64,000 nt of DNA, taken from a virus. The position numbers were made by a program, and so were the translations under genes. This document shows positions 2,817 through 14,667 of this stretch, one piece after another. The stretch lies in the IMG/VR virus record IMGVR_UViG_3300044691_000371, positions 20,827 to 84,826 of that record; one strand, written 5' to 3'. Positions within the stretch are counted from its first letter, which is position 1, and the number at the start of each line of letters is the position of its first letter. A model generated the notes under the pieces. It saw only the letters and a list, made by a program, of their open reading frames with translations. It had not been told where the DNA came from and ran no database searches.

Positions 2817-4122
2817 ATTTCTTCAAACTTTTATAATAGTTAAATCCCCTATTTAAGTAATAAGGAAAATTAATCATAGGATGTATCATTTCGGCTGTAG
2901 CATTTTCAATATGTTTAGTCGTTAATTTTTTAGGTTCAATTACCGATACATTATGATCTATGCAATGAATTTTAACTCTATTGTAATCTTCAATTGCTGT
3001 CATTTTCATTATTCCAAAATGACCTTTAAGTAATCCATGCATACTCATACTTTCATTCAATTAAACTTTCTGGTCTATCAATATCAACGTTAAAATTTGA
3101 GTAGTCGTTTCCCTCTGCGTTTGAAATTCTCATTGGCCTTTTTGCTTTCCTCCAAAAGTCGTCACTCCATTCCTGTAAGATAACTTTTTCTTCATCTGTT
3201 ATTAGTTCATCATTGTAGACCTTTAGAAGTATGTGGTTTTGTTGTGGTGTCATTTTTAATCGTTGCTATCAAAGATATATTTTTCTGCTATCTCTAAAAC
3301 AGTTCTTACTTTTTTAAGGTCAAATTGAAATCTTGTGGTAAAACGCTATCATCTTCGCCGGTTATTGTAACATAATTTATCATTTGTGCTATTTAAAAAG
3401 TGAATTAAATTCTTGAATTGTTTTAACTGTTCCATTCATACGCTTAACAATATCACCAGTTAGGCATATTGTGAGTTTATCGGCATCCTTCTTACTTATT
3501 TCAGCGAACATTGCTTCTTTTATAAAGAGATTTACAATGCTATTATTGCCTAAAACTGTTAAATCTGCGTATGCTTTTTGTAAAATCCAACCTCTGAACT
3601 TTGTTCTTATGTCAGATAGGTAAACTGAAAATTCATGATTTTTACCTATTTTAAATTTGAATGTAGGATTTGGTAAATCTTTTTTAGGGTCAAAATCCAT
3701 TACTGTTACTTTCATCTTTTTATTCTTTTTGTATATAAATATCCATTAAACTCTTTCCAATTCTTAAACAAGCTACTTTTGAAAAAGTAGATGTATTTTT
3801 CACTGAAAATTATACGGTATTTATTCATCTCTTAAACAGCTTGCATAACCTCTATTCGAACACATTGCCTCAATAATATCATCCCTCAACCGTGCTTGAT
3901 ATTTTTCGGCTGTTTCGCCCTCACGTTGCTTTAAATCTTCGTTTCTTTCACTTGAAACAACGTGACTATTGAACAATTGCAAGACGTAATTTGCACCAAT
4001 CATGAAGCAATCGTGATCGCTCAATACTTTTCTTTCGTCGTATTGGTGCTTTTCATAAAAATCTCCTATCTGATTTTCAGCATTTAGATAGGCGTTCTTT
4101 AGGAATTTTTGATTAGTTGTCA

Positions 4123-4410
4123 TTACGCGGCGATTTTAGATTTAATAAAAGTCATTTGATTTTTTGTGAACTTATCGCCGAAAAGAAATTGTGCAAGTCC
4201 GTTTATACCGTGTTCTTTGCAAAACTTAATAGTATCTAAAACCCTACGTGTTACGGTAGCGGCTTCGCCCTCTACATGAAAGGATACGAAGTCAGGGTCA
4301 TTATCAATGATGTCATAAAGTGCTTGTGTATCGAAGTTGTTATCTATGATAACGTTTTCAGTATAGTTTTTGTAAGTGATAACTCCGATTTGTGATACTT
4401 GATTTTTCAT
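4123..4410 (-). CDS. Hypothetical protein (first gene after a conserved phage promoter)
   Basis: ATG at 4410 (MKNQVSQ...) lies downstream of promoter 4447-4477; the longer TTG start in the ORF track runs through the promoter. Confidence 0.6.
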   Translation of the reverse strand: MKNQVSQIGVITYKNYTENVIIDNNFDTQALYDIIDNDPDFVSFHVEGEAATVTRRVLDTIKFCKEHGINGLAQFLFGDKFTKNQMTFIKSKIAA

Positions 4411-9572: not shown

Positions 9573-12014
9573 CTATCCAAGTTTTGGTTTTACTCTTTGG
9601 GTTTTAGTTGTGCCTCCTGCTTGCGGTAATCCACGTCTGCGTTGTAGAAATTGCGTATATTCATCTTTCAATGCTGTTGTGATAAAGTAGCGGCTACAGT
9701 TATGTACTAAAATTCCATTTGCAAAAAATTCGTGTTCATCTTCAATTTCCAAATCGTAAACGTTTTTTACATTCTTTTGAGCATGTTTTTGTTGGGGCGT
9801 ATTTATACACTGTAAATTCATTGTTGCAAATTGCGCATATTCTTTGTGTGTTTTCAAGTCCCAATTTCCGCCTGTATGCTGATTTGCAATTGTTAGAGCA
9901 AAAACGTTGTTCGATTGTTTTTTTTGTAAATTCCTTATTGCATACTTCGCAATTATATTGTCCATATGTAAGATGTCCAAACCCGATATTTTTTGCATGT
10001 TGTTTACACCTTTCCCTCTCTGCTTCACTTCGTTCTCGTTTAGCTGCTGCTGGAATTGCTTTTTCGAGAAGATTTTTAAGCATTTTTGCTTTTTGTTCAT
10101 CAGTCCATTCTTTACTATGGTCTGACATGTGCTGGCTTTTGGTTTTAAGCTCAAAATTGCTTGTTTCGTTATTTTCAGGATTGTGATCAATGTGGTGAAC
10201 AACGTACCCTTTAGGTATTTCCCCGACTTCGCATTCGTATTTATAAACATGTAATCTTGTTTTTCTCCAATTTCCTTTACTGATTTTAACCCATCCTGAA
10301 TAATATGGTTGGTCTCTTTTAGTTCCTGTGTACTTAATAAATCTAAATCCGTTATAGGTGATAATTTCTTTTCGCATACTAAATTATTTTCATCTAAAAT
10401 ACAAAAAGTACCGCAAACAATCAAATATATTTCTATAAAATCTTTTTCCTTAGTGTAAAATTTATGTTCTGGTGTGCATGTTACTTTAACATCACCTATT
10501 TGATATTCTTTAACCTGTCTATATCCATTATTCCAAACATTTAAAACTTTTTTATATCCATTTCTTGTCAAAACATTTTCACCTATTTTAATTTCATCAA
10601 TTCTTTTATTTCCATTATCGGTCATTATAAAAGTTTCCCCGACAAAACAAGATAACATATGTCCGTACTTCTCATAAGTTATACCTGTTTGTTTATCGGT
10701 TACTTTTTTAATAATGATTCCACCGTCTACATCTTCCGGCACCATTAAATAATCTTCAATCGATTTGTAACAAGTTTTATTTATAAAAATCTTCCATCCT
10801 AAATATTGCGTTTCTAAAATTTCGTTTATAAATGCCCCGCTTTGCGTTATACTTGGTGCTGACTTTCCAACTCTATCAACAACTTTAAATCCTGCATTTT
10901 CTAAAACTCCTATGAATTTATCAAAAAATGATCTTCCATTATCATCTGTTGTTGATCTTGCGTTTGCAGATGGATCGCCAAATACATTTATAATATCGTT
11001 ATAATCTTCACGATCTAAATATTTAACTAATTCCATTGCTGCTTTTGCTGCTGTATTGTTTGGTGCAATACATGGTAATTCACCAATTTGTAATAATGCT
11101 TTCCCAACTTTATCAATCATCCAAAGTTGAACTGATACGTATGGGCTAACGTTATTGTCACAACTTACACAATAAGTAAATCCACGCTGTTTTAGCCCCG
11201 GTATTAAGTTAAAATCTATTGTGTGAAGGTTTGTATCAAAACATTTATAAAACGGATTTCCAGGCTTTCTAAACCCCCAATTCCCAAGCGTAAACACATT
11301 GTAGTAATATGCGTTATTTTTTGATGTTCGATAACTCTCATATAATGCAATACGTTCGTCACTACAGTAAGGATTATCTTTATACGTGCCATGGGTTGAT
11401 CTTACCTTAAATTCTATTTTCCCTTTTGGTGTATCAATTTCGCGTACCCATTTAAAGTTTTTTTCTTCTGTATGTGAAAACCAATCCTGCCATAGCCAAA
11501 AATCAGTATAAGTAACGTCACATTCAGGATTAAAACTAAAATATGTTTTTACTTTTCCTTCGTTTGAACGCAAAGAGGTTAATATTACTATAAAATCATC
11601 CGCTGTTATCTGATTTGCTTCTTCTAACCATGCCCATGATGGATTCGCAAATGATTTTATTTTCTGAACGTCATCTAATCCCCTGCCATAAAACGCCCCG
11701 CCATTGATACATTTAATTTCTAATGGTGAAGTTGTGAATTTAAAAAATTGTTGCAATCCCCAATTTTCAACTACAATTTTAATCATCCCAACCATTGATT
11801 CAGAAACTGTATTATAGGTTTTCCTTATTAATAGCCCGCGAAATTTAGGATTAGACATACATTCGATTATGCCCATTTGTGCTATCTGTCTCGTTTTGCC
11901 ATTATCCCTGCCTCCCCAGAGGAAGTCAATATCAAAAACTTCTGGGTCATCGATTAAATGGTGGTAACATGGAAGGAACTTATCGCGACTGACTGTTATG
12001 TTTATTTCTGACAT
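9573..12014 (-). CDS. terL: Terminase large subunit (PBSX-type) interrupted by an intein; ~496 aa after splicing
   Basis: Walker A GGRDNGKT, LLIRKT, RGLDD..KIKS, Walker B WAWLEEA, SFNP, and nuclease motifs (FGDPSA; GHMLS|CSRY). Confidence 0.93.
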   Translation of the reverse strand: MSEINITVSRDKFLPCYHHLIDDPEVFDIDFLWGGRDNGKTRQIAQMGIIECMSNPKFRGLLIRKTYNTVSESMVGMIKIVVENWGLQQFFKFTTSPLEIKCINGGAFYGRGLDDVQKIKSFANPSWAWLEEANQITADDFIVILTSLRSNEGKVKTYFSFNPECDVTYTDFWLWQDWFSHTEEKNFKWVREIDTPKGKIEFKVRSTHGTYKDNPYCSDERIALYESYRTSKNNAYYYNVFTLGNWGFRKPGNPFYKCFDTNLHTIDFNLIPGLKQRGFTYCVSCDNNVSPYVSVQLWMIDKVGKALLQIGELPCIAPNNTAAKAAMELVKYLDREDYNDIINVFGDPSANARSTTDDNGRSFFDKFIGVLENAGFKVVDRVGKSAPSITQSGAFINEILETQYLGWKIFINKTCYKSIEDYLMVPEDVDGGIIIKKVTDKQTGITYEKYGHMLSCFVGETFIMTDNGNKRIDEIKIGENVLTRNGYKKVLNVWNNGYRQVKEYQIGDVKVTCTPEHKFYTKEKDFIEIYLIVCGTFCILDENNLVCEKKLSPITDLDLLSTQELKETNHIIQDGLKSVKEIGEKQDYMFINTNAKSGKYLKGTLFTTLITILKITKQAILSLKPKASTCQTIVKNGLMNKKQKCLKIFSKKQFQQQLNENEVKQRGKGVNNMQKISGLDILHMDNIIAKYAIRNLQKKQSNNVFALTIANQHTGGNWDLKTHKEYAQFATMNLQCINTPQQKHAQKNVKNVYDLEIEDEHEFFANGILVHNCSRYFITTALKDEYTQFLQRRRGLPQAGGTTKTQRVKPKLG
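9699..10649 (-). mobile_element. Intein (317 aa, TerL residues 456-772)
   Basis: Block A CFVGETFIMT, block B TCTPEHKFYT, block F VYDLEIEDEHEFFANG, block G ILVHN followed by Cys+1. Confidence 0.93.
9742..10377 (-). CDS. HNH homing endonuclease with C-terminal zinc ribbons, encoded in the -1 frame entirely inside the intein coding sequence
   Basis: RLHVYKYE..VGEIPKGYVVHHIDHNPENNETSNFEL...H (HNH_3); CxxC...FCSNNC and CxxC...TCSKEC; own ATG with A-rich upstream sequence and A at -3. Confidence 0.88.
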   Translation of the reverse strand: MRKEIITYNGFRFIKYTGTKRDQPYYSGWVKISKGNWRKTRLHVYKYECEVGEIPKGYVVHHIDHNPENNETSNFELKTKSQHMSDHSKEWTDEQKAKMLKNLLEKAIPAAAKRERSEAERERCKQHAKNIGFGHLTYGQYNCEVCNKEFTKKTIEQRFCSNNCKSAYRRKLGLENTQRICAICNNEFTVYKYAPTKTCSKECKKRLRFGN

Positions 12015-12030
12015 AGAAAATCAAAAATAC

Positions 12031-12062
12031 AAAAAAAGGCAATCATTATTATTGACTGCCTT
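12031..12062 (-). terminator. Intrinsic terminator after the TROVE gene
   Basis: - strand AAGGCAGTCA-ataataa-TGATTGCC followed by a T run. Confidence 0.75.
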
Positions 12063-12086: not shown

Positions 12087-13538
12087 TTAGAACGTTACCG
12101 CCTTTATTTCGTTGATTAACGCTTGTTTGTCGGTCTCTAACATCGCCATGGTTTGGAATATTTTGTCGCTGAAACCGGCTAAACAAAATACTTTACTTTC
12201 AGGAAATTGCATTGTGCCTAATCCAGCAAGATCAAACGAATATATGAATGGATTTGCGCCAAATTTTTTATTGTACTCTGATAATGGCACTTTAGGTGAA
12301 TAGTAACCAATCCATCCTTGCATATCGCTAAAGATTAAAACACGTTCATATTTTTTATTAGCGTTTTTAAATATGGAATGAAAGTTCGTTCCGTGTCCAA
12401 CTTTGTTTTGACGTGTAAAATTAGCTGCGAAATCCATTGAATGTTGCGATAACTGATAATGAATGTAACGTGCAAAGTCTCCAAATTCCATTATATCAGC
12501 ATTAATTGCCTTTGCTAAAACTATCCCAAACAAAGCCCCTAATTCCGATTTTTTCATGTGCTTTGAGTTTGAAACTAAGCTATCCATCGACCCGGAATTG
12601 TCAACTGCAACTAATGTATTGCCGTCAAAGTTCAGCGTTTTAATGTTATTACAGCTTATATCGACCGCCTCACTTAATGCCTGTGTTATTTGACGTGCTT
12701 CTTTAGTGCCCAATGCTGAAAACTGTTTGTAAGCTATCAAATATTGAAACGGAAATATCAGCGACTTTTTAATGAACGATTCGCTTGTCAATGATGCCAA
12801 TGCCTCTGTTAAAACTTCCGGTGCTTGTGTCATGATGTTTGACAGGTTACGAAGCAAAGCCAAATAACCTATTTTCTTTTCACGTACAAGGTTAATCCAA
12901 ACTTCTTTTTTGGCGTTCTCAACATTATCACTTTGCCCCGCTGCTGTTAAACCTGATTCCCACGTATCAACTGATTTCAGCGTACCGTTTACTAATGCCT
13001 TAATTGCTTCGGCGTTTTTTTCAACTGGTGTAGGGTGAACGATATTAACAACGTCAACAAGTTTTATTGCGTTCTTTTCGCCGCGGTATTTTGCCAGCTG
13101 GTATCCATCAAACTTTTCAAACGCCAATGCAAAGCCGCCTTTCATAGCGTTGGTTACTTTCCCGTTGTTGGCTTTGTGGTACGACAAAATTTCTGTCATA
13201 TCATCCGGCCTGTAAATAACTGCATTGTAAAAAGCCTTTGCCCAATCATAGCCGCCGACCTGTATAGCTAATTCAGATGCAGCAACGTGGCTGATCGAAC
13301 GCATACCGTATTTTGTACGTGCGTAAACGGCGGCTTGTGCAACGAATTTAGGATTGCATTGAGTAATTAAAGTTTTCAATCTCGTTAATGTATCGTTTGA
13401 TTTTTCGTAAAATCCATCGCTTACAAATGAAGTAAGCAATATTGATACTAACTCTAATTCGGCAGATTGCTTGTGTGATTGCCCACCTGCTTTGTTTTCT
13501 ACAAGTGCTGTAGATTCTGTTTTTGTGTTAAACTTCAT
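12087..13538 (-). CDS. rsr: Ro60/Rsr ortholog (TROVE domain + vWA domain)
   Basis: NKAGG, FVAQAAVYAR...MRS, YQLAKY, DVVNIVHP, TWE, YLALLRNL, PFQYLIAY; vWA motif VDNSGSM, GTNF and IFSDMQ. Confidence 0.93.
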   Translation of the reverse strand: MKFNTKTESTALVENKAGGQSHKQSAELELVSILLTSFVSDGFYEKSNDTLTRLKTLITQCNPKFVAQAAVYARTKYGMRSISHVAASELAIQVGGYDWAKAFYNAVIYRPDDMTEILSYHKANNGKVTNAMKGGFALAFEKFDGYQLAKYRGEKNAIKLVDVVNIVHPTPVEKNAEAIKALVNGTLKSVDTWESGLTAAGQSDNVENAKKEVWINLVREKKIGYLALLRNLSNIMTQAPEVLTEALASLTSESFIKKSLIFPFQYLIAYKQFSALGTKEARQITQALSEAVDISCNNIKTLNFDGNTLVAVDNSGSMDSLVSNSKHMKKSELGALFGIVLAKAINADIMEFGDFARYIHYQLSQHSMDFAANFTRQNKVGHGTNFHSIFKNANKKYERVLIFSDMQGWIGYYSPKVPLSEYNKKFGANPFIYSFDLAGLGTMQFPESKVFCLAGFSDKIFQTMAMLETDKQALINEIKAVTF

Positions 13539-13567
13539 GATTATTTGATTTTAAAATTTGTTTAAAA

Positions 13568-13603
13568 TAAAAAAGGCAGTCACTTTTTAGATGTACTGCC
13601 TTT
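13568..13603 (-). terminator. Intrinsic terminator between the Y RNA array and rsr
   Basis: - strand AAAGGCAGTAC-atctaaaaa-GTGACTGCCTTTTTT. Confidence 0.75.
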
Positions 13604-13610
13604 AAATGTT

Positions 13611-13694
13611 ATTGACAAAGAAAATTCAAGAGGGTTTACTGGGTTTCCCCACGAGTTAGAAAGTCGATGTAGCCCACTTATAACTATTGTCAAT
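13611..13694 (-). ncRNA. Y RNA-like unit 4 (3'-most)
   Basis: Terminal stem ATTGACAA/TTGTCAAT; TAGTTA...GGCTACATCG...TTTCT motifs shared with the other units. Confidence 0.7.
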
Positions 13695-13698
13695 GTCA

Positions 13699-13771
13699 TT
13701 CAGGAGAAAATTGCGGCACGGTATTTTTTTGCATTTTCGAAGCGAAGTAACCGTATTGCTAACTACCTGAA
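13699..13771 (-). ncRNA. Y RNA-like unit 3
   Basis: Terminal stem TTCAGG/CCTGAA, inner stem ACGGT/ACCGT, TAGTTA, TACTTCG and TTTCT motifs. Confidence 0.75.
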
Positions 13772-13777
13772 ATATTT

Positions 13778-13918
13778 ATTGTTGGAGAAAGGCTAAAAGA
13801 GTATTTTTTCTGTCCTGGGTACTACCACTATACTATACCCGAATTAATCGGATAAGAAGATTCGAACTCCTGTCACAGGTTTGGTATCGAAGTAACTCTA
13901 ATTATAACTACCAACAAT
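13778..13918 (-). ncRNA. yrlA: YrlA-type Y RNA with circularly permuted tRNA-like domain (unit 2)
   Basis: Terminal stem ATTGTTGG/CCAACAAT; inside, in order: T arm AGGAG-TTCGAAT-CTTCT (13855-13871), loop-closed acceptor stem TATCCGA/TCGGGTA, then TA and D arm GTAT-AGTGGTA-GTAC; adjacent to Ro60. Confidence 0.85.
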
Positions 13919-13923
13919 GATTC

Positions 13924-13992
13924 TGTAAGGGAAAGTTTTGATCGCGTGTTTTTTCATTTACATCGAAGTAACGCATTCAATAGCCACTTACA
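13924..13992 (-). ncRNA. Y RNA-like unit 1 (5'-most)
   Basis: Terminal stem TGTAAG/CTTACA, inner stem GCGT/ACGC, TGGCTA, TACTTCG and TTTCC motifs. Confidence 0.75.
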
Positions 13993-14034
13993 AATTTTTA
14001 TATCTTATCAAAGAACTATGCCCTAAATCGTTTT

Positions 14035-14093
14035 CAAATATAAAAACTTTTATCATTACAAAACAAATTTATTTTAAAATATTTTTACTTTTG
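14035..14093. promoter_or_regulatory. Divergent promoters for the Y RNA/rsr operon (-) and the GT2 gene (+)
   Basis: - strand TATATTTG at 14035-14042 with TTTG 21 nt upstream; + strand TACTTTTG at 14086-14093, 4 nt before ATG 14098. Confidence 0.6.
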
Positions 14094-14097
14094 TTTA

Positions 14098-14667
14098 ATG
14101 AATGAGCAAAAGCTATTAATCAATATCTTAATCAGAACAAGTAATAGACCTTTATCCTTTGCAAAATGTTTGCAATCAGTGGTAGATCAGGATTATCCTA
14201 ATATTCGAATAATTATTGGAATAGACAATCAAGGGGCTTTACGTTACATTCCAAAAGGATTAGAAGTTTACCCTGTAAGTGCTGATAAATCGGTAAAATA
14301 TTTTTATGATCTGTATATTCCACAACTATTGCAATATGTAGAAGACGGTTACGTGCTAATTTTAGATGATGATGATCGGCTTAATCCAAATGTGTTATCT
14401 AAATTGCAATTAGAAGGCCCAGGATTAATCGTTCAACTTCAAAGACAAAATACTATCGTTCCAAAAGATTTATTCTTTAAACGCGGTGGAATTGGCTTTC
14501 CTTGCCTTATCTTCCATCATTCATTGAAAAACGAATATCCTATTCATGGTGAAGGTGCAGGAGATTACTATTTTATAAAATCCGCCTTATCAGATTTTCC
14601 GTTTCCATTTTTCCCTATCATTGTTGTTTATAGCCCATCTAAAGGCAATGGTAAATGTAATGGTTAA
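14098..14667 (+). CDS. Glycosyltransferase family 2 (only convincing + strand CDS in the window)
   Basis: ILIRTSNRP..FAKCLQSVVDQDYPNIRIII..DN and ILDDDD (DxD). Confidence 0.85.
   Translation: MNEQKLLINILIRTSNRPLSFAKCLQSVVDQDYPNIRIIIGIDNQGALRYIPKGLEVYPVSADKSVKYFYDLYIPQLLQYVEDGYVLILDDDDRLNPNVLSKLQLEGPGLIVQLQRQNTIVPKDLFFKRGGIGFPCLIFHHSLKNEYPIHGEGAGDYYFIKSALSDFPFPFFPIIVVYSPSKGNGKCNG

What the first reader, a model, noticed from the sequence alone, without database searches (positions are those of the whole stretch)
12087..14042. Phage-encoded Ro60 with a tandem array of four Y RNAs
Seen: between a promoter (14035) and the rsr ATG lie four back-to-back hairpins (13924-13992, 13778-13918, 13699-13771, 13611-13694). 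Their terminal stems differ in sequence but all pair, and they share TRGYTA-N5/6-stem-TACWTCG ... AAAY-stem-TTTCY. The covariation indicates a conserved RNA fold, not a DNA repeat. Established: bacterial Ro60 genes are flanked by Y RNAs, usually one or two, and a few phages carry them. Inference: a four-member array with a common Ro-binding module and different distal modules could give four distinct RNPs. The shared motif differs from the metazoan GGUCCGA bulged helix and may define a Bacteroidota-type Y RNA family. The module sits directly upstream of terL, and no rtcB is evident in the window.
Basis: partly seen in the sequence, partly recalled or inferred. Interest (0 to 1): 0.85.

Follow-up and report, generated by a model that had tools for sequence, protein, structure and literature searches.

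The report
Phage Ro60 with four Y RNAs
An uncultured soil phage of a Bacteroidota-type host carries a gene for the ring-shaped RNA-binding protein Ro60. Just upstream lie four back-to-back small RNA genes that share one conserved "handle" but carry different tips, one of them a rearranged tRNA look-alike. This is a real but divergent, multi-RNA version of the known Ro60/Y-RNA particle.

Summary
ORF 12087-13538(-) is a Ro60/Rsr protein: it has a TROVE domain, its closest solved relative is Thermus phage phiLo Ro60, and its predicted fold matches all solved Ro60 rings.

Four co-oriented hairpin units lie upstream (13992-13611). They share one module:
- a terminal stem with a bulged U;
- a 2-bp RG:CY step;
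- an asymmetric loop (YNA / RNYUUU);
- two inner helices;
- an invariant UAC-UUC(G).

Covariance models built from these units hit 35 sites in the window and 13 viral loci, and 156 sites in 80 genome loci. Every one of these sites is on the Ro60 strand, and all but three lie upstream of the gene. 93% of the pair positions checked form a standard base pair, and all 15 pairs show compensatory changes. The phage genome holds only these four units.

Unit 2 carries a circularly permuted tRNA body of the YrlA type. Units 1 and 3 are short and YrlB-like. Unit 4 carries a GNRA-capped hairpin.

Rfam YrlA misses the window and scores relatives below its threshold (28-46 bits against 69).

Arrays of 3-6 units are common in this clade, and the family also occurs in cellular Bacteroidota and in crAss-like phages. 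I found no transcript or binding data. This scan has met Ro60-plus-RNA-array loci on other DNA many times. Verdict: a new variant of a known kind.

The parts
14035..14042 (-). Candidate promoter -7 box TATATTTG (Bacteroidota TAnnTTTG type). TTTG words lie 16 and 21 nt upstream, at 14062-14059 and 14067-14064.
   Evidence: Read directly. TAnnTTTG occurs within 260 nt upstream of the first unit in 21 of 65 related loci, against a background of 0.15 per 260 nt. The sigma-70 scan found no good site here. Promoter function is inferred, and the consensus is recalled from the literature.
13924..13992 (-). Y RNA unit 1: the handle plus a short apical loop (UACUUCG-N8-GAAAAAAC). Short, YrlB-like class.
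   Evidence: Fold. R1 and R2 hits (60.6 bits). The ortholog in L001 is 2421-2490. UUC...GAA is enriched in short units, 54 of 77 against 24.7 +/- 4.1 in shuffles.
13778..13918 (-). Y RNA unit 2: the handle plus a tRNA-like cargo. YrlA-like class.
   Evidence: R1 and R2 hits (63.6 bits). Rfam YrlA gives no hit here but scores 28-46 bits on the tRNA-like units of relatives.
13814..13879 (-). Circularly permuted tRNA body inside unit 2. Order: CCUG, a 4-nt variable loop, T arm (AGGAG-UUCGAAU-CUUCU), a 7-bp acceptor stem closed by UUAAU, U8-A9, D arm (GUAU-AGUGGUA-GUAC), C, CAGG. It has no anticodon loop and no CCA.
   Evidence: When the two halves are put back in tRNA order with any of four 7-nt loops, ARAGORN calls a tRNA. 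It calls none in the native order and none in 200 shuffles.
13699..13771 (-). Y RNA unit 3: the handle plus a short A-rich apical loop. Short class.
   Evidence: Fold. R1 and R2 hits (61.8 bits). Compared with its L001 ortholog, P1 changed CAGG/CCUG to CAAG/CUUG and P3 changed UACGG/CCGUG to UUCGG/CCGAG, both compensatory.
13611..13694 (-). Y RNA unit 4: the handle (UACAUCG variant) plus a distal hairpin capped by a GAAA tetraloop at 13651-13640.
   Evidence: Fold. R1 and R2 hits (51.3 bits). The L001 ortholog keeps the GAAA-capped hairpin on a different stem, and two G-C pairs in P2/P3 are A-U there.
13564..13603 (-). Intrinsic-terminator-like hairpin plus U run between the array and rsr.
   Evidence: Fold -13.3 kcal/mol, z -3.7. 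The stem covaries with L001. A comparable hairpin plus T run lies between the array and rsr in 29 of 72 loci, mostly the closer relatives. The consensus scan did not list it because its loop is too long for that rule.
12087..13538 (-). rsr: Ro60 ortholog, 483 aa. HEAT-repeat TROVE ring plus a vWA domain with the MIDAS motif D-x-S-G-S.
   Evidence: Pfam TROVE 1e-16; vWA_Ro60 21.8 bits, below its cut-off. phiLo Ro60 (9KOP/9L5Y) matches at E 2e-25 over residues 17-476. AlphaFold model pLDDT 79, TM 0.62-0.72 to phiLo, Xenopus, human and Deinococcus Ro60. D313, S315, G316 and S317 are invariant in 11 homologs.
12026..12062 (-). Terminator after rsr, before the terL ATG at 12014.
   Evidence: The terminator scan reports 10 pairs followed by a T run.

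Best explanation
This is a self-contained phage Ro60 (Rsr)/Y-RNA cassette.

**Transcription (inferred).** A host-type (Bacteroidota) promoter near 14040 probably drives a polycistronic transcript of about 460 nt. It holds four back-to-back small RNA genes separated by 4-7 nt (8-10 nt between the 5-bp model cores) and ends at a terminator-like hairpin (13603-13564). Read-through of that hairpin would supply the rsr mRNA, because the remaining 25 nt before the ATG hold no promoter-like word. The precursor would then be cut into four RNAs of about 69, 141, 73 and 84 nt. Mycobacterium YrlA/YrlB and Deinococcus Yrn1/Yrn2 are processed this way.

**The shared handle (shown).** Each RNA closes its 5' and 3' ends into the same structure:
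- helix P1;
- a bulged U;
- a 2-bp RG:CY step;
- an asymmetric internal loop (5' YNA, 3' RNYUUU);
- helices P2 and P3;
- an invariant UAC-UUC(G).

**Binding (inferred).** By homology of position and architecture with YrlA, YrlB, Yrn and Yrl RNAs, the handle is the docking site for the phage Ro60 ring.

**The tips (shown).** They differ: two short A-rich loops, one permuted tRNA body and one GNRA-capped hairpin. One protein would therefore form four different particles.

**Function (least certain).** The most likely function is the published one for Ro60/Y RNA. The RNA gates the Ro60 cavity and tethers the ring to a host enzyme, with PNPase as the best precedent (Deinococcus, Salmonella, phage phiLo). 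This would redirect host RNA decay or tRNA-handling enzymes during infection. The phage encodes no PNPase, RtcB or RNA ligase of its own.
For: **The protein is Ro60.** TROVE domain at 1e-16. Full-length match to phiLo Ro60, E 2e-25. The predicted fold matches every solved Ro60, TM 0.62-0.72.

**The RNA fold is real.**
- 35 units: 90% of the pair positions checked form a standard pair, against about 50% when partners are slid.
- 150 units: 93% paired, and all 15 pairs carry compensatory changes. No shuffle out of 500 reaches the observed covariation score.
- An alignment not fitted to my model gives the same helices, with 13 of 15 pairs compensated.
- Compensatory changes are seen between orthologous units of the window and L001.

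**The RNAs are tied to Ro60.**
- All 35 plus 156 hits lie on the Ro60 strand. All but three lie upstream of the gene, most within about 1 kb.
- Arrays sit downstream of the gene in L011, L037 and crAss001.
- Only four units exist in the phage genome.

**Kinship to known Y RNAs.**
- Rfam YrlA scores 28-46 bits (E 1e-7 to 3e-2) on the tRNA-like units of relatives, and aligns its CUAC to our UUAC.
- Unit 2 is a permuted tRNA by ARAGORN.
- Actinophage BRock units carry GUUACUUC and UUUUUCU.

**Published precedents.**
- Polycistronic, multi-Y-RNA loci and tRNA mimicry (PMC4201824).
- Phage phiLo Ro60 binds two upstream Y-like RNAs and joins host PNPase (PMC12135203).
- The crAss001 TROVE gene is an early gene (PMC8375218).

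**No own effector enzymes.** The phage has no RtcB, PNPase or RNA ligase.
Against: - There is no transcript evidence. No RNA run holds the locus.
- There are no binding data for this protein or these RNAs.
- The window's handle lacks the G of the CGA / GNCGAA motif (UUA in three units, CUA in one).
- Rfam YrlA does not detect unit 2 even at E <= 10.
- My model gives only weak matches in the phiLo locus (E 0.03-0.25), all outside the upstream region where the experimentally bound Yrl1 and Yrl2 lie.
- Single-sequence folding z-scores are modest.
- The promoter, the read-through, the processing and the partner enzyme are all inferred.
Confidence: 0.85

Rival explanations
1. The four hairpins are a cis-acting leader of the rsr mRNA. 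Ro60 would bind its own leader and set the amount of read-through at the terminator at 13603-13564 (autoregulation). They would not be stable trans-acting Y RNAs.
For: The array, the terminator-like hairpin and rsr lie in one transcription direction, with no promoter-like word between hairpin and ATG. The hairpin is kept in 29 of 72 loci.
Against: Arrays lie downstream of rsr in L011, L037 and crAss001. Units are interleaved with tRNA genes or sit 0.7-1.3 kb from rsr in several loci. 43 of 72 loci have no such hairpin. The known homologs are stable trans-acting RNAs (PMC4201824). The two readings are not exclusive.
Confidence: 0.08
2. The particle is an anti-defence device. The handle-tagged RNAs, above all the tRNA mimic, would act as decoys or sensors for host tRNA-targeting nucleases or tRNA-modifying enzymes. 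Ro60 would serve as their chaperone, with no role for PNPase.
For: Unit 2 is a complete tRNA body. In phage csAssE-Sib, whole annotated tRNAs sit inside the same handle. In several loci the arrays merge with phage tRNA clusters. The phage has no RNA-repair genes.
Against: Unit 2 has no anticodon loop, which is the usual target of anticodon nucleases. Three of the four units have no tRNA part. The same arrays occur in cellular chromosomes, for example Neolewinella persica beside katG, so the system is not anti-defence by origin. No experimental link exists.
Confidence: 0.15
3. The units are DNA-level repeats, such as protein-binding sites, recombination sites or decayed tRNA genes, with no RNA function.
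For: No transcript data exist. Thermodynamic z-scores are modest.
Against: Sequence differs while pairing is kept: all 15 pairs are compensated. G-U pairs work only on the rsr strand. There are strictly conserved single-stranded words and strict co-orientation with rsr in 191 of 191 hits. No DNA-repeat signature explains the covariation.
Confidence: 0.02

Closest known systems
Bacterial Rsr with YrlA/YrlB (Salmonella Typhimurium, Mycobacterium smegmatis; Rfam RF02553; Chen et al. 2014, PMC4201824)
   Same: Small RNAs are encoded beside rsr on its strand. At least two occur per species and are processed from one precursor. One carries a T-arm / closed acceptor / D-arm tRNA mimic and another is a simple hairpin. 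A terminal stem carries the Ro site, and a YUAY word precedes the tRNA-like part. Unit 2 has a 7-bp acceptor stem, the feature that makes M. smegmatis YrlA an RNase P substrate.
   Different: The units score below the Rfam threshold: no hit in the window and 28-46 bits in relatives, against 69. The handle has its own invariant words (UAC-UUC, UUUUCU), a bulged U and extra nucleotides between UUAC and the tRNA body. The window lacks GNCGAA. There are four units here and up to six elsewhere. There is no rtcBA or RtcR context.
Thermus phage phiLo Ro60 with Yrl1/Yrl2 (PDB 9KOP, 9L5Y; PMC12135203)
   Same: It is the closest solved protein (E 2e-25, full length; TM 0.67-0.70). It is phage-encoded, its Y-like RNAs lie directly upstream of the gene, the phage has no PNPase, and the stem / internal loop / stem layout is the same.
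   Different: phiLo has two RNAs and no reported tRNA mimic. Its 'CGAA' motif is absent from the window's units. My model does not recognise the phiLo upstream region. The proteins are only 26% identical.
Deinococcus radiodurans Rsr with Yrn1, Yrn2 and RNAs a, b and d (PMC4201824)
   Same: Several small RNAs lie upstream of rsr and are made as a polycistronic precursor, there together with a tRNA. Yrn1 tethers Rsr to PNPase.
   Different: The Deinococcus RNAs do not share one uniform handle, and some bind Rsr weakly. The locus is stress-induced and cellular.
Metazoan Y RNAs (Rfam RF00019) with Ro60
   Same: The 5' and 3' ends form a helix with a single bulged pyrimidine on the 5' strand. Beyond the bulge, in the CGA and UGA forms common in relatives, a GA could pair with UU. 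The distal modules vary, and there are four paralogs in humans.
   Different: Metazoan Y RNAs are separate Pol III genes with a GGUCCGA sequence, a U-tail that binds La, and no tRNA mimic. The resemblance of the bulged helix is read by eye and recalled, not tested.

Membership tests
Ro60 / Rsr protein (TROVE ring + vWA) | TROVE (HEAT-repeat) domain | tested here: met
   PF05731, 61.6 bits against a cut-off of 23, E 1e-16.
Ro60 / Rsr protein (TROVE ring + vWA) | C-terminal vWA domain with a MIDAS motif (DxSxS) | tested here: met
   The motif D-N-S-G-S-M aligns with D-V-S-G-S-M of phiLo Ro60. D313, S315, G316 and S317 are invariant in 11 homologs. The model shows a beta-alpha vWA fold from residue 308. 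The Pfam vWA_Ro60 hit is below its cut-off (21.8 against 27.7 bits).
Ro60 / Rsr protein (TROVE ring + vWA) | Full-length fold like the solved Ro60 rings | tested here: met
   Foldseek: 9KOP TM 0.67/0.70, 9NEP 0.72, 1YVR 0.68, 2NVO 0.62, all with probability 1.00.
Y RNA (Ro60-bound small RNA) | Encoded beside the Ro60 gene on the same strand (the bacterial and phage rule) | tested here: met
   All 35 hits and all 156 hits are on the Ro60 strand; all but three lie upstream of the gene, most within about 1 kb.
Y RNA (Ro60-bound small RNA) | The 5' and 3' ends pair into a conserved stem with a bulge, followed by an internal loop and a variable distal part | tested here: met
   Covariation. The bulged pyrimidine is present in 149 of 150 units (column 6).
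Y RNA (Ro60-bound small RNA) | Conserved Ro-binding sequence (GGUCCGA in animals; GNCGAAN0-1G / CGAA in bacteria and phiLo) | tested here: not met
   The window has UAGUUA in three units and UGGCUA in one. Across the family the triplet is UGA (98), CGA (43) or another form (44) out of 185 units. Only the CGA form resembles the published motif.
Y RNA (Ro60-bound small RNA) | Physically bound and stabilised by Ro60; a discrete small transcript | not testable with these tools
   No RNA run holds the locus. EMSA, CLIP or northern blots are needed.
YrlA (Rfam RF02553) | Score at or above the Rfam gathering threshold (69 bits) | tested here: not met
   No hit in the window at the gathering threshold, at E <= 10 or in the whole genome. 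Relatives score 28-46 bits.
YrlA (Rfam RF02553) | tRNA-like domain in the order T arm, closed acceptor stem, D arm | tested here: met
   Unit 2, 13879-13814. ARAGORN calls a tRNA after re-permutation, and none in 200 shuffles.
YrlA (Rfam RF02553) | YUAY word between the Ro-binding stem and the tRNA-like domain | tested here: met
   UUAC or CUAC is present in all four units. The Rfam consensus CUAc aligns to UUAC in L036. U, A and C are near-invariant in 150 units.
rsr-yrlBA-rtcBA RNA-repair operon | RtcB/RtcA ligase and cyclase genes in the same operon | tested here: not met
   No RtcB (PF01139) and no RNA_ligase (PF09414) in the 84.8-kb record.
RYPER (Ro60-Y RNA-PNPase) complex | The Y RNA tethers Ro60 to PNPase | not testable with these tools
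   The phage has no RNase_PH/PNPase domain, so a host enzyme would be needed. Precedent: phiLo with Thermus PNPase (PMC12135203).

The most novel reading that the evidence does not exclude
The constant handle could be an address tag that lets one Ro60 ring display interchangeable RNA cargos. The cargos seen are short loops, GNRA hairpins, permuted tRNA bodies, whole tRNAs (csAssE-Sib) and an unknown 170-230-nt domain (L006, L012, L013, L100). Arrays of 3-6 such RNAs would form a programmable, multi-partner RNP platform. Bacteroidota and their phages, including crAss-like phages where the protein is an early gene, would use it to re-route several host RNA enzymes at once. This goes beyond the single Ro60-Y-PNPase machine described so far.
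Probability: 0.3. Interest if true: 0.8.

Novelty: new variant of a known kind. Interest (0 to 1): 0.55.

Why it matters
Ro60/Y-RNA particles are conserved from bacteria to humans, where Ro60 is a major lupus and Sjogren autoantigen. What the different Y RNAs do is still poorly understood.

This locus, with about 190 related units, defines a Y-RNA branch that current Rfam models miss. It has a sharply conserved handle and cargo modules that appear to be exchanged freely. That gives testable handle nucleotides (bulged U, UAC-UUC, UUUUCU) and a natural series of cargo variants.

The same family occurs in the cultivable Bacteroides phage crAss001, so the role of a phage Ro60 particle could be studied in a real infection system.

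Tried and rejected
- **Rfam.** There is no family at the gathering threshold in the window or in 20 related loci apart from true tRNAs. YrlA does not detect window unit 2 even at E <= 10 or in the whole genome.
- **Expression.** No RNA holder is listed for the locus.
- **phiLo link.** My model gives only E 0.03-0.25 matches in the phiLo locus, none upstream of the gene where Yrl1 and Yrl2 lie. A UUACUUCG word upstream of phiLo Ro60 appears to lie in a short reading frame (my reading, not searched) and was dismissed as chance.
- **Handle/protein co-evolution.** I considered whether the window's U-for-G change in the YGA triplet marks a protein-matched specificity switch. I dropped the idea because non-G forms are scattered and mixed within arrays in about 23 other loci.
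- **A universal UUC/GAA closing helix.** It is supported only for short units (54 of 77 against 24.7 expected), not for long ones (23 of 108 against 22.4).
- **Large cargo as an RNase P-like RNA.** This was an impression from a GAAAAAGUCC word. There is no Rfam support at E <= 1, so I left it unexplained.
- **terL adjacency as functional.** Only L001 shares the terL and GT2 neighbours.
- **Per-unit terminators or La-like U tails.** The 3' flanks are U-rich across the family but not in the window.
- **Literature.** The Chen 2014 supplementary tables and two Wolin reviews are not held. I therefore could not check whether any Bacteroidota Y RNAs were listed there.
Full report
**Source and context.** The window is bases 20827-84826 of an 84.8-kb IMG/VR viral record estimated to be about 90% complete. 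The only DNA run holding the whole stretch is a soil metagenome, which may be its source. Nearly all genes run on the - strand. The finding lies between a divergently oriented glycosyltransferase gene (14098-14667, +) and the large terminase gene (9573-12014, -).

**The protein.** ORF 12087-13538(-) encodes 483 aa.
- Pfam gives TROVE at 1e-16 and a sub-threshold vWA_Ro60 match.
- Among solved structures the best sequence match is Thermus phage phiLo Ro60 (9KOP/9L5Y). The match is E 2e-25 over residues 17-476, and the MIDAS motif D-x-S-G-S aligns.
- An AlphaFold model built on 11 homologs (pLDDT 79, pTM 0.79) matches phiLo, Xenopus, human and Deinococcus Ro60 over its full length, with TM 0.62-0.72.

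It is a Ro60/Rsr ortholog.

**The four units.** Aligned with 5-bp terminal stems, they share the following elements:

| Element | Form in the window |
|---|---|
| P1 | terminal stem |
| Bulge | a single U |
| 2-bp step | AG:CU in three units, GG:CC in one |
| Internal loop, 5' side | UUA or CUA |
| Internal loop, 3' side | six nucleotides ending in UUU |
| P2 | 2-4 bp |
| P3 | 3-6 bp |
| After P3 | UACUUCG or UACAUCG |
| Before the 3' strand of P3 | an A-rich stretch |

The stems differ in sequence between units but all pair. Single-sequence folding energies are only modestly better than shuffles (z -0.6 to -2.1), so I relied on comparison with other loci.

**Comparative test.** I collected 18 viral contigs whose Ro60 is 44-88% identical. 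By eye, their upstream regions carry the same module in arrays.
- Model R1, built from the four units alone, found 35 sites at E <= 1 in the window plus 13 viral loci (156 kb, both strands). All are adjacent to Ro60 and on its strand, and none lies elsewhere in the 64-kb window.
- Model R2, rebuilt from these 35, found 156 sites in 80 genome-collection loci that encode Ro60 relatives (435 kb). Every one is on the Ro60 strand.
- R2 finds only the four known units in the whole phage record.

Pair counts:
- 35 units: 90% of the pair positions checked form a standard pair, against 39-54% when partners are slid.
- 150 units: 93% paired, and all 15 pairs have compensatory changes. No shuffle out of 500 reaches the covariation score.
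- Those alignments were fitted to the model. I therefore also ran MAFFT plus RNAalifold on 23 short units. This recovered the same P1 / bulge / 2-bp step / P2-P3 layout, with 13 of 15 pairs compensated.
- Orthologous units of the window and its closest relative L001 show textbook compensations in P1, P2/P3, the unit-4 distal hairpin and the terminator.

It is passed decisively.

**Family consensus.** Across 150 units the 5' side reads NNNRG, Y (bulge), AG, Y-G-A (the A is invariant), then P2 and P3, then U-A-C, U-U-C, G. The 3' side reads A-C-N-C-N, P2', R-N-U-U-U-U, C-U, P1'.
- The middle base of the Y-G-A triplet is G in 141 of 185 units. The window has U in all four units, and L001 has U or A in all five.
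- The CGA form resembles the bacterial GNCGAA and the 'CGAA' motif used to find the phiLo Yrl RNAs (PMC4201824, PMC12135203). The window's own form does not.

**Relation to YrlA.**
- Rfam's YrlA model does not reach its 69-bit threshold anywhere. It does give significant sub-threshold matches (28-46 bits, E 1e-7 to 3e-2) to the tRNA-like units of L036, L001, L004, L024 and L023, and it aligns its CUAC to our UUAC.
- Unit 2 of the window is too divergent for that model. Its cargo (13879-13814) reads as anticodon-stem strand, variable loop, 5-bp T stem with UUCGAAU, 7-bp acceptor stem closed by UUAAU, U8-A9, 4-bp D stem with AGUGGUA, then the other anticodon-stem strand.
- Put back into tRNA order with any of four 7-nt loops, ARAGORN calls it a tRNA. 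It calls none in the native order and none in 200 shuffles.
- Unit 2 therefore has YrlA architecture. Units 1 and 3 belong to a short class in which UUC is followed after 6-11 nt by GAA(AA) (54 of 77 units against 24.7 +/- 4.1 expected), comparable to YrlB-type hairpins. Unit 4 carries a GAAA-capped hairpin that is kept on a different stem in L001.

**Array size and spread.**
- Detected units per locus were 1 (21 loci), 2 (16), 3 (24), 4 (7), 5 (4) and 6 (2). Unit lengths are bimodal, near 65 and 130 nt. Some contigs are truncated, so these counts are lower bounds.
- The modal spacer between 5-bp-core units is 8-13 nt, and the window's 8-10 nt is typical.
- Hosts of the genome loci are mostly Saprospiraceae and other Bacteroidota. 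Verrucomicrobiota, Chloroflexota, a Sericytochromatia bin and a few probably mis-binned contigs also appear.
- In the isolate Neolewinella persica the locus is flanked by a catalase-peroxidase-type gene and a Laminin_G_3 protein, which is a cellular context.
- R2 also hits three units upstream of Ro60 in phage csAssE-Sib, two units downstream of the TROVE gene of Bacteroides phage crAss001, and two units in a 635-kb uncultured phage. It hits the Streptomyces phage BRock weakly, and those units nonetheless carry GUUACUUC and UUUUUCU.
- The phiLo locus gives only weak matches, none in the upstream region where its Yrl RNAs lie.

**Transcription signals.**
- A TAnnTTTG word (TATATTTG, 14042-14035) with TTTG words 16 and 21 nt upstream fits the Bacteroidota promoter consensus as I recall it. 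The word occurs within 260 nt upstream of the arrays in 21 of 65 loci, against 0.15 expected per 260 nt.
- After unit 4 comes a hairpin plus U run (13603-13564; -13.3 kcal/mol, z -3.7). It covaries with L001 and has counterparts in 29 of 72 loci.
- rsr starts 25 nt later and is followed by its own terminator.
- I infer one promoter, a polycistronic Y-RNA precursor, partial read-through into rsr, and processing into four RNAs. Mycobacterium and Deinococcus show the same pattern (PMC4201824). None of this is shown for this locus, because no RNA run holds it.

**Function.** The phage has no RtcB, PNPase-type or RNA-ligase domain, so any effector must come from the host.
- Published precedents favour tethering of Ro60 to PNPase by the Y RNA (PMC4201824). 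This includes phage phiLo Ro60 working with Thermus PNPase (PMC12135203).
- The crAss001 TROVE gene is transcribed within 10 minutes of infection (PMC8375218), which suggests an early, host-directed role.
- Which partner each of the four tips recruits is unknown.
- Only L001 shares the terL and glycosyltransferase neighbours. The position next to terL is therefore incidental, and the cassette behaves as a portable module.

**Novelty.** These are already published: Ro60 with Y RNAs in bacteria and phages, polycistronic loci holding several Y RNAs, and tRNA mimicry. Full-text searches and Rfam did not turn up the following:
- this handle subfamily;
- its arrays of up to six units with exchangeable cargo;
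- its presence in Bacteroidota and in crAss-like phages.

I could not read the 2014 supplementary tables or two reviews, so some overlap with earlier lists cannot be excluded. Earlier notes of this scan describe Ro60-like proteins with handle-tagged RNA arrays on many other genomes. They are unchecked leads and did not enter the evidence here.

Noticed in passing
L006:2678-2928, L007:2680-2928, L012:2647-2916, L013:2666-2891, L100:2121-2401: In five phage contigs the second array unit has the same handle but a 170-230-nt cargo. The cargo has invariant blocks GUGAAAAAGYCC and AGUUUCGGGAGAAUUCU and a covarying closing stem. There is no Rfam match at the gathering threshold or at E <= 1. It is an unknown structured RNA domain.
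   Followed up: partly
L103 (phage csAssE-Sib, OR575929) 1992-2407: The annotated tRNA-Tyr (2160-2232) and tRNA-Lys (2305-2378) upstream of the 'Ro sixty-related protein' gene lie inside handle units (2134-2260 and 2280-2407; E 1e-8 and 4e-8). They are tRNAs in normal order with anticodon arms, wrapped in the Y-RNA handle.
   Followed up: partly
L102 (Bacteroides phage crAss001, MH675552) 3997-4164: Two handle units (E 2e-5 and 9e-3) lie in the unannotated gap downstream of TROVE gene gp96. This phage is cultivable and its TROVE gene is an early gene, so it is a ready test system.
   Followed up: partly
L004:2399-2557 (also L002, L005, L015, L024); window 14017-14008: In several relatives a 52-aa ORF that looks like a ribbon-helix-helix protein lies between the promoter and unit 1. 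Its TAG stop is the UAG of the first handle. Pfam finds nothing. The window lacks the ORF but keeps the word AGTTCTTTGA from its 3' end.
   Followed up: partly
L093, L095, L096, L072: In these loci the Y-RNA arrays are contiguous with clusters of 5-13 true tRNA genes on the same strand, upstream of Ro60.
   Followed up: no
L109 (Streptomyces phage BRock) 1839-2293: Unannotated Y-like units lie between the tRNA cluster and the Ro60 gene. There are partial Rfam YrlA matches (32 bits) and a weak match to my model, with GUUACUUC and UUUUUCU present. The handle words are therefore shared well beyond Bacteroidota.
   Followed up: partly
window 9573-12014 versus L001:5147-6613: The terL of the closest relative aligns as residues 1-457 followed directly by 772-806. 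It therefore lacks the Hint/intein insert present in the window's terL, so the insert appears to be a recent gain or loss.
   Followed up: no
L011:4462-4793, L037:1695-1761: In these loci the handle units lie downstream of the Ro60 gene, not upstream.
   Followed up: no
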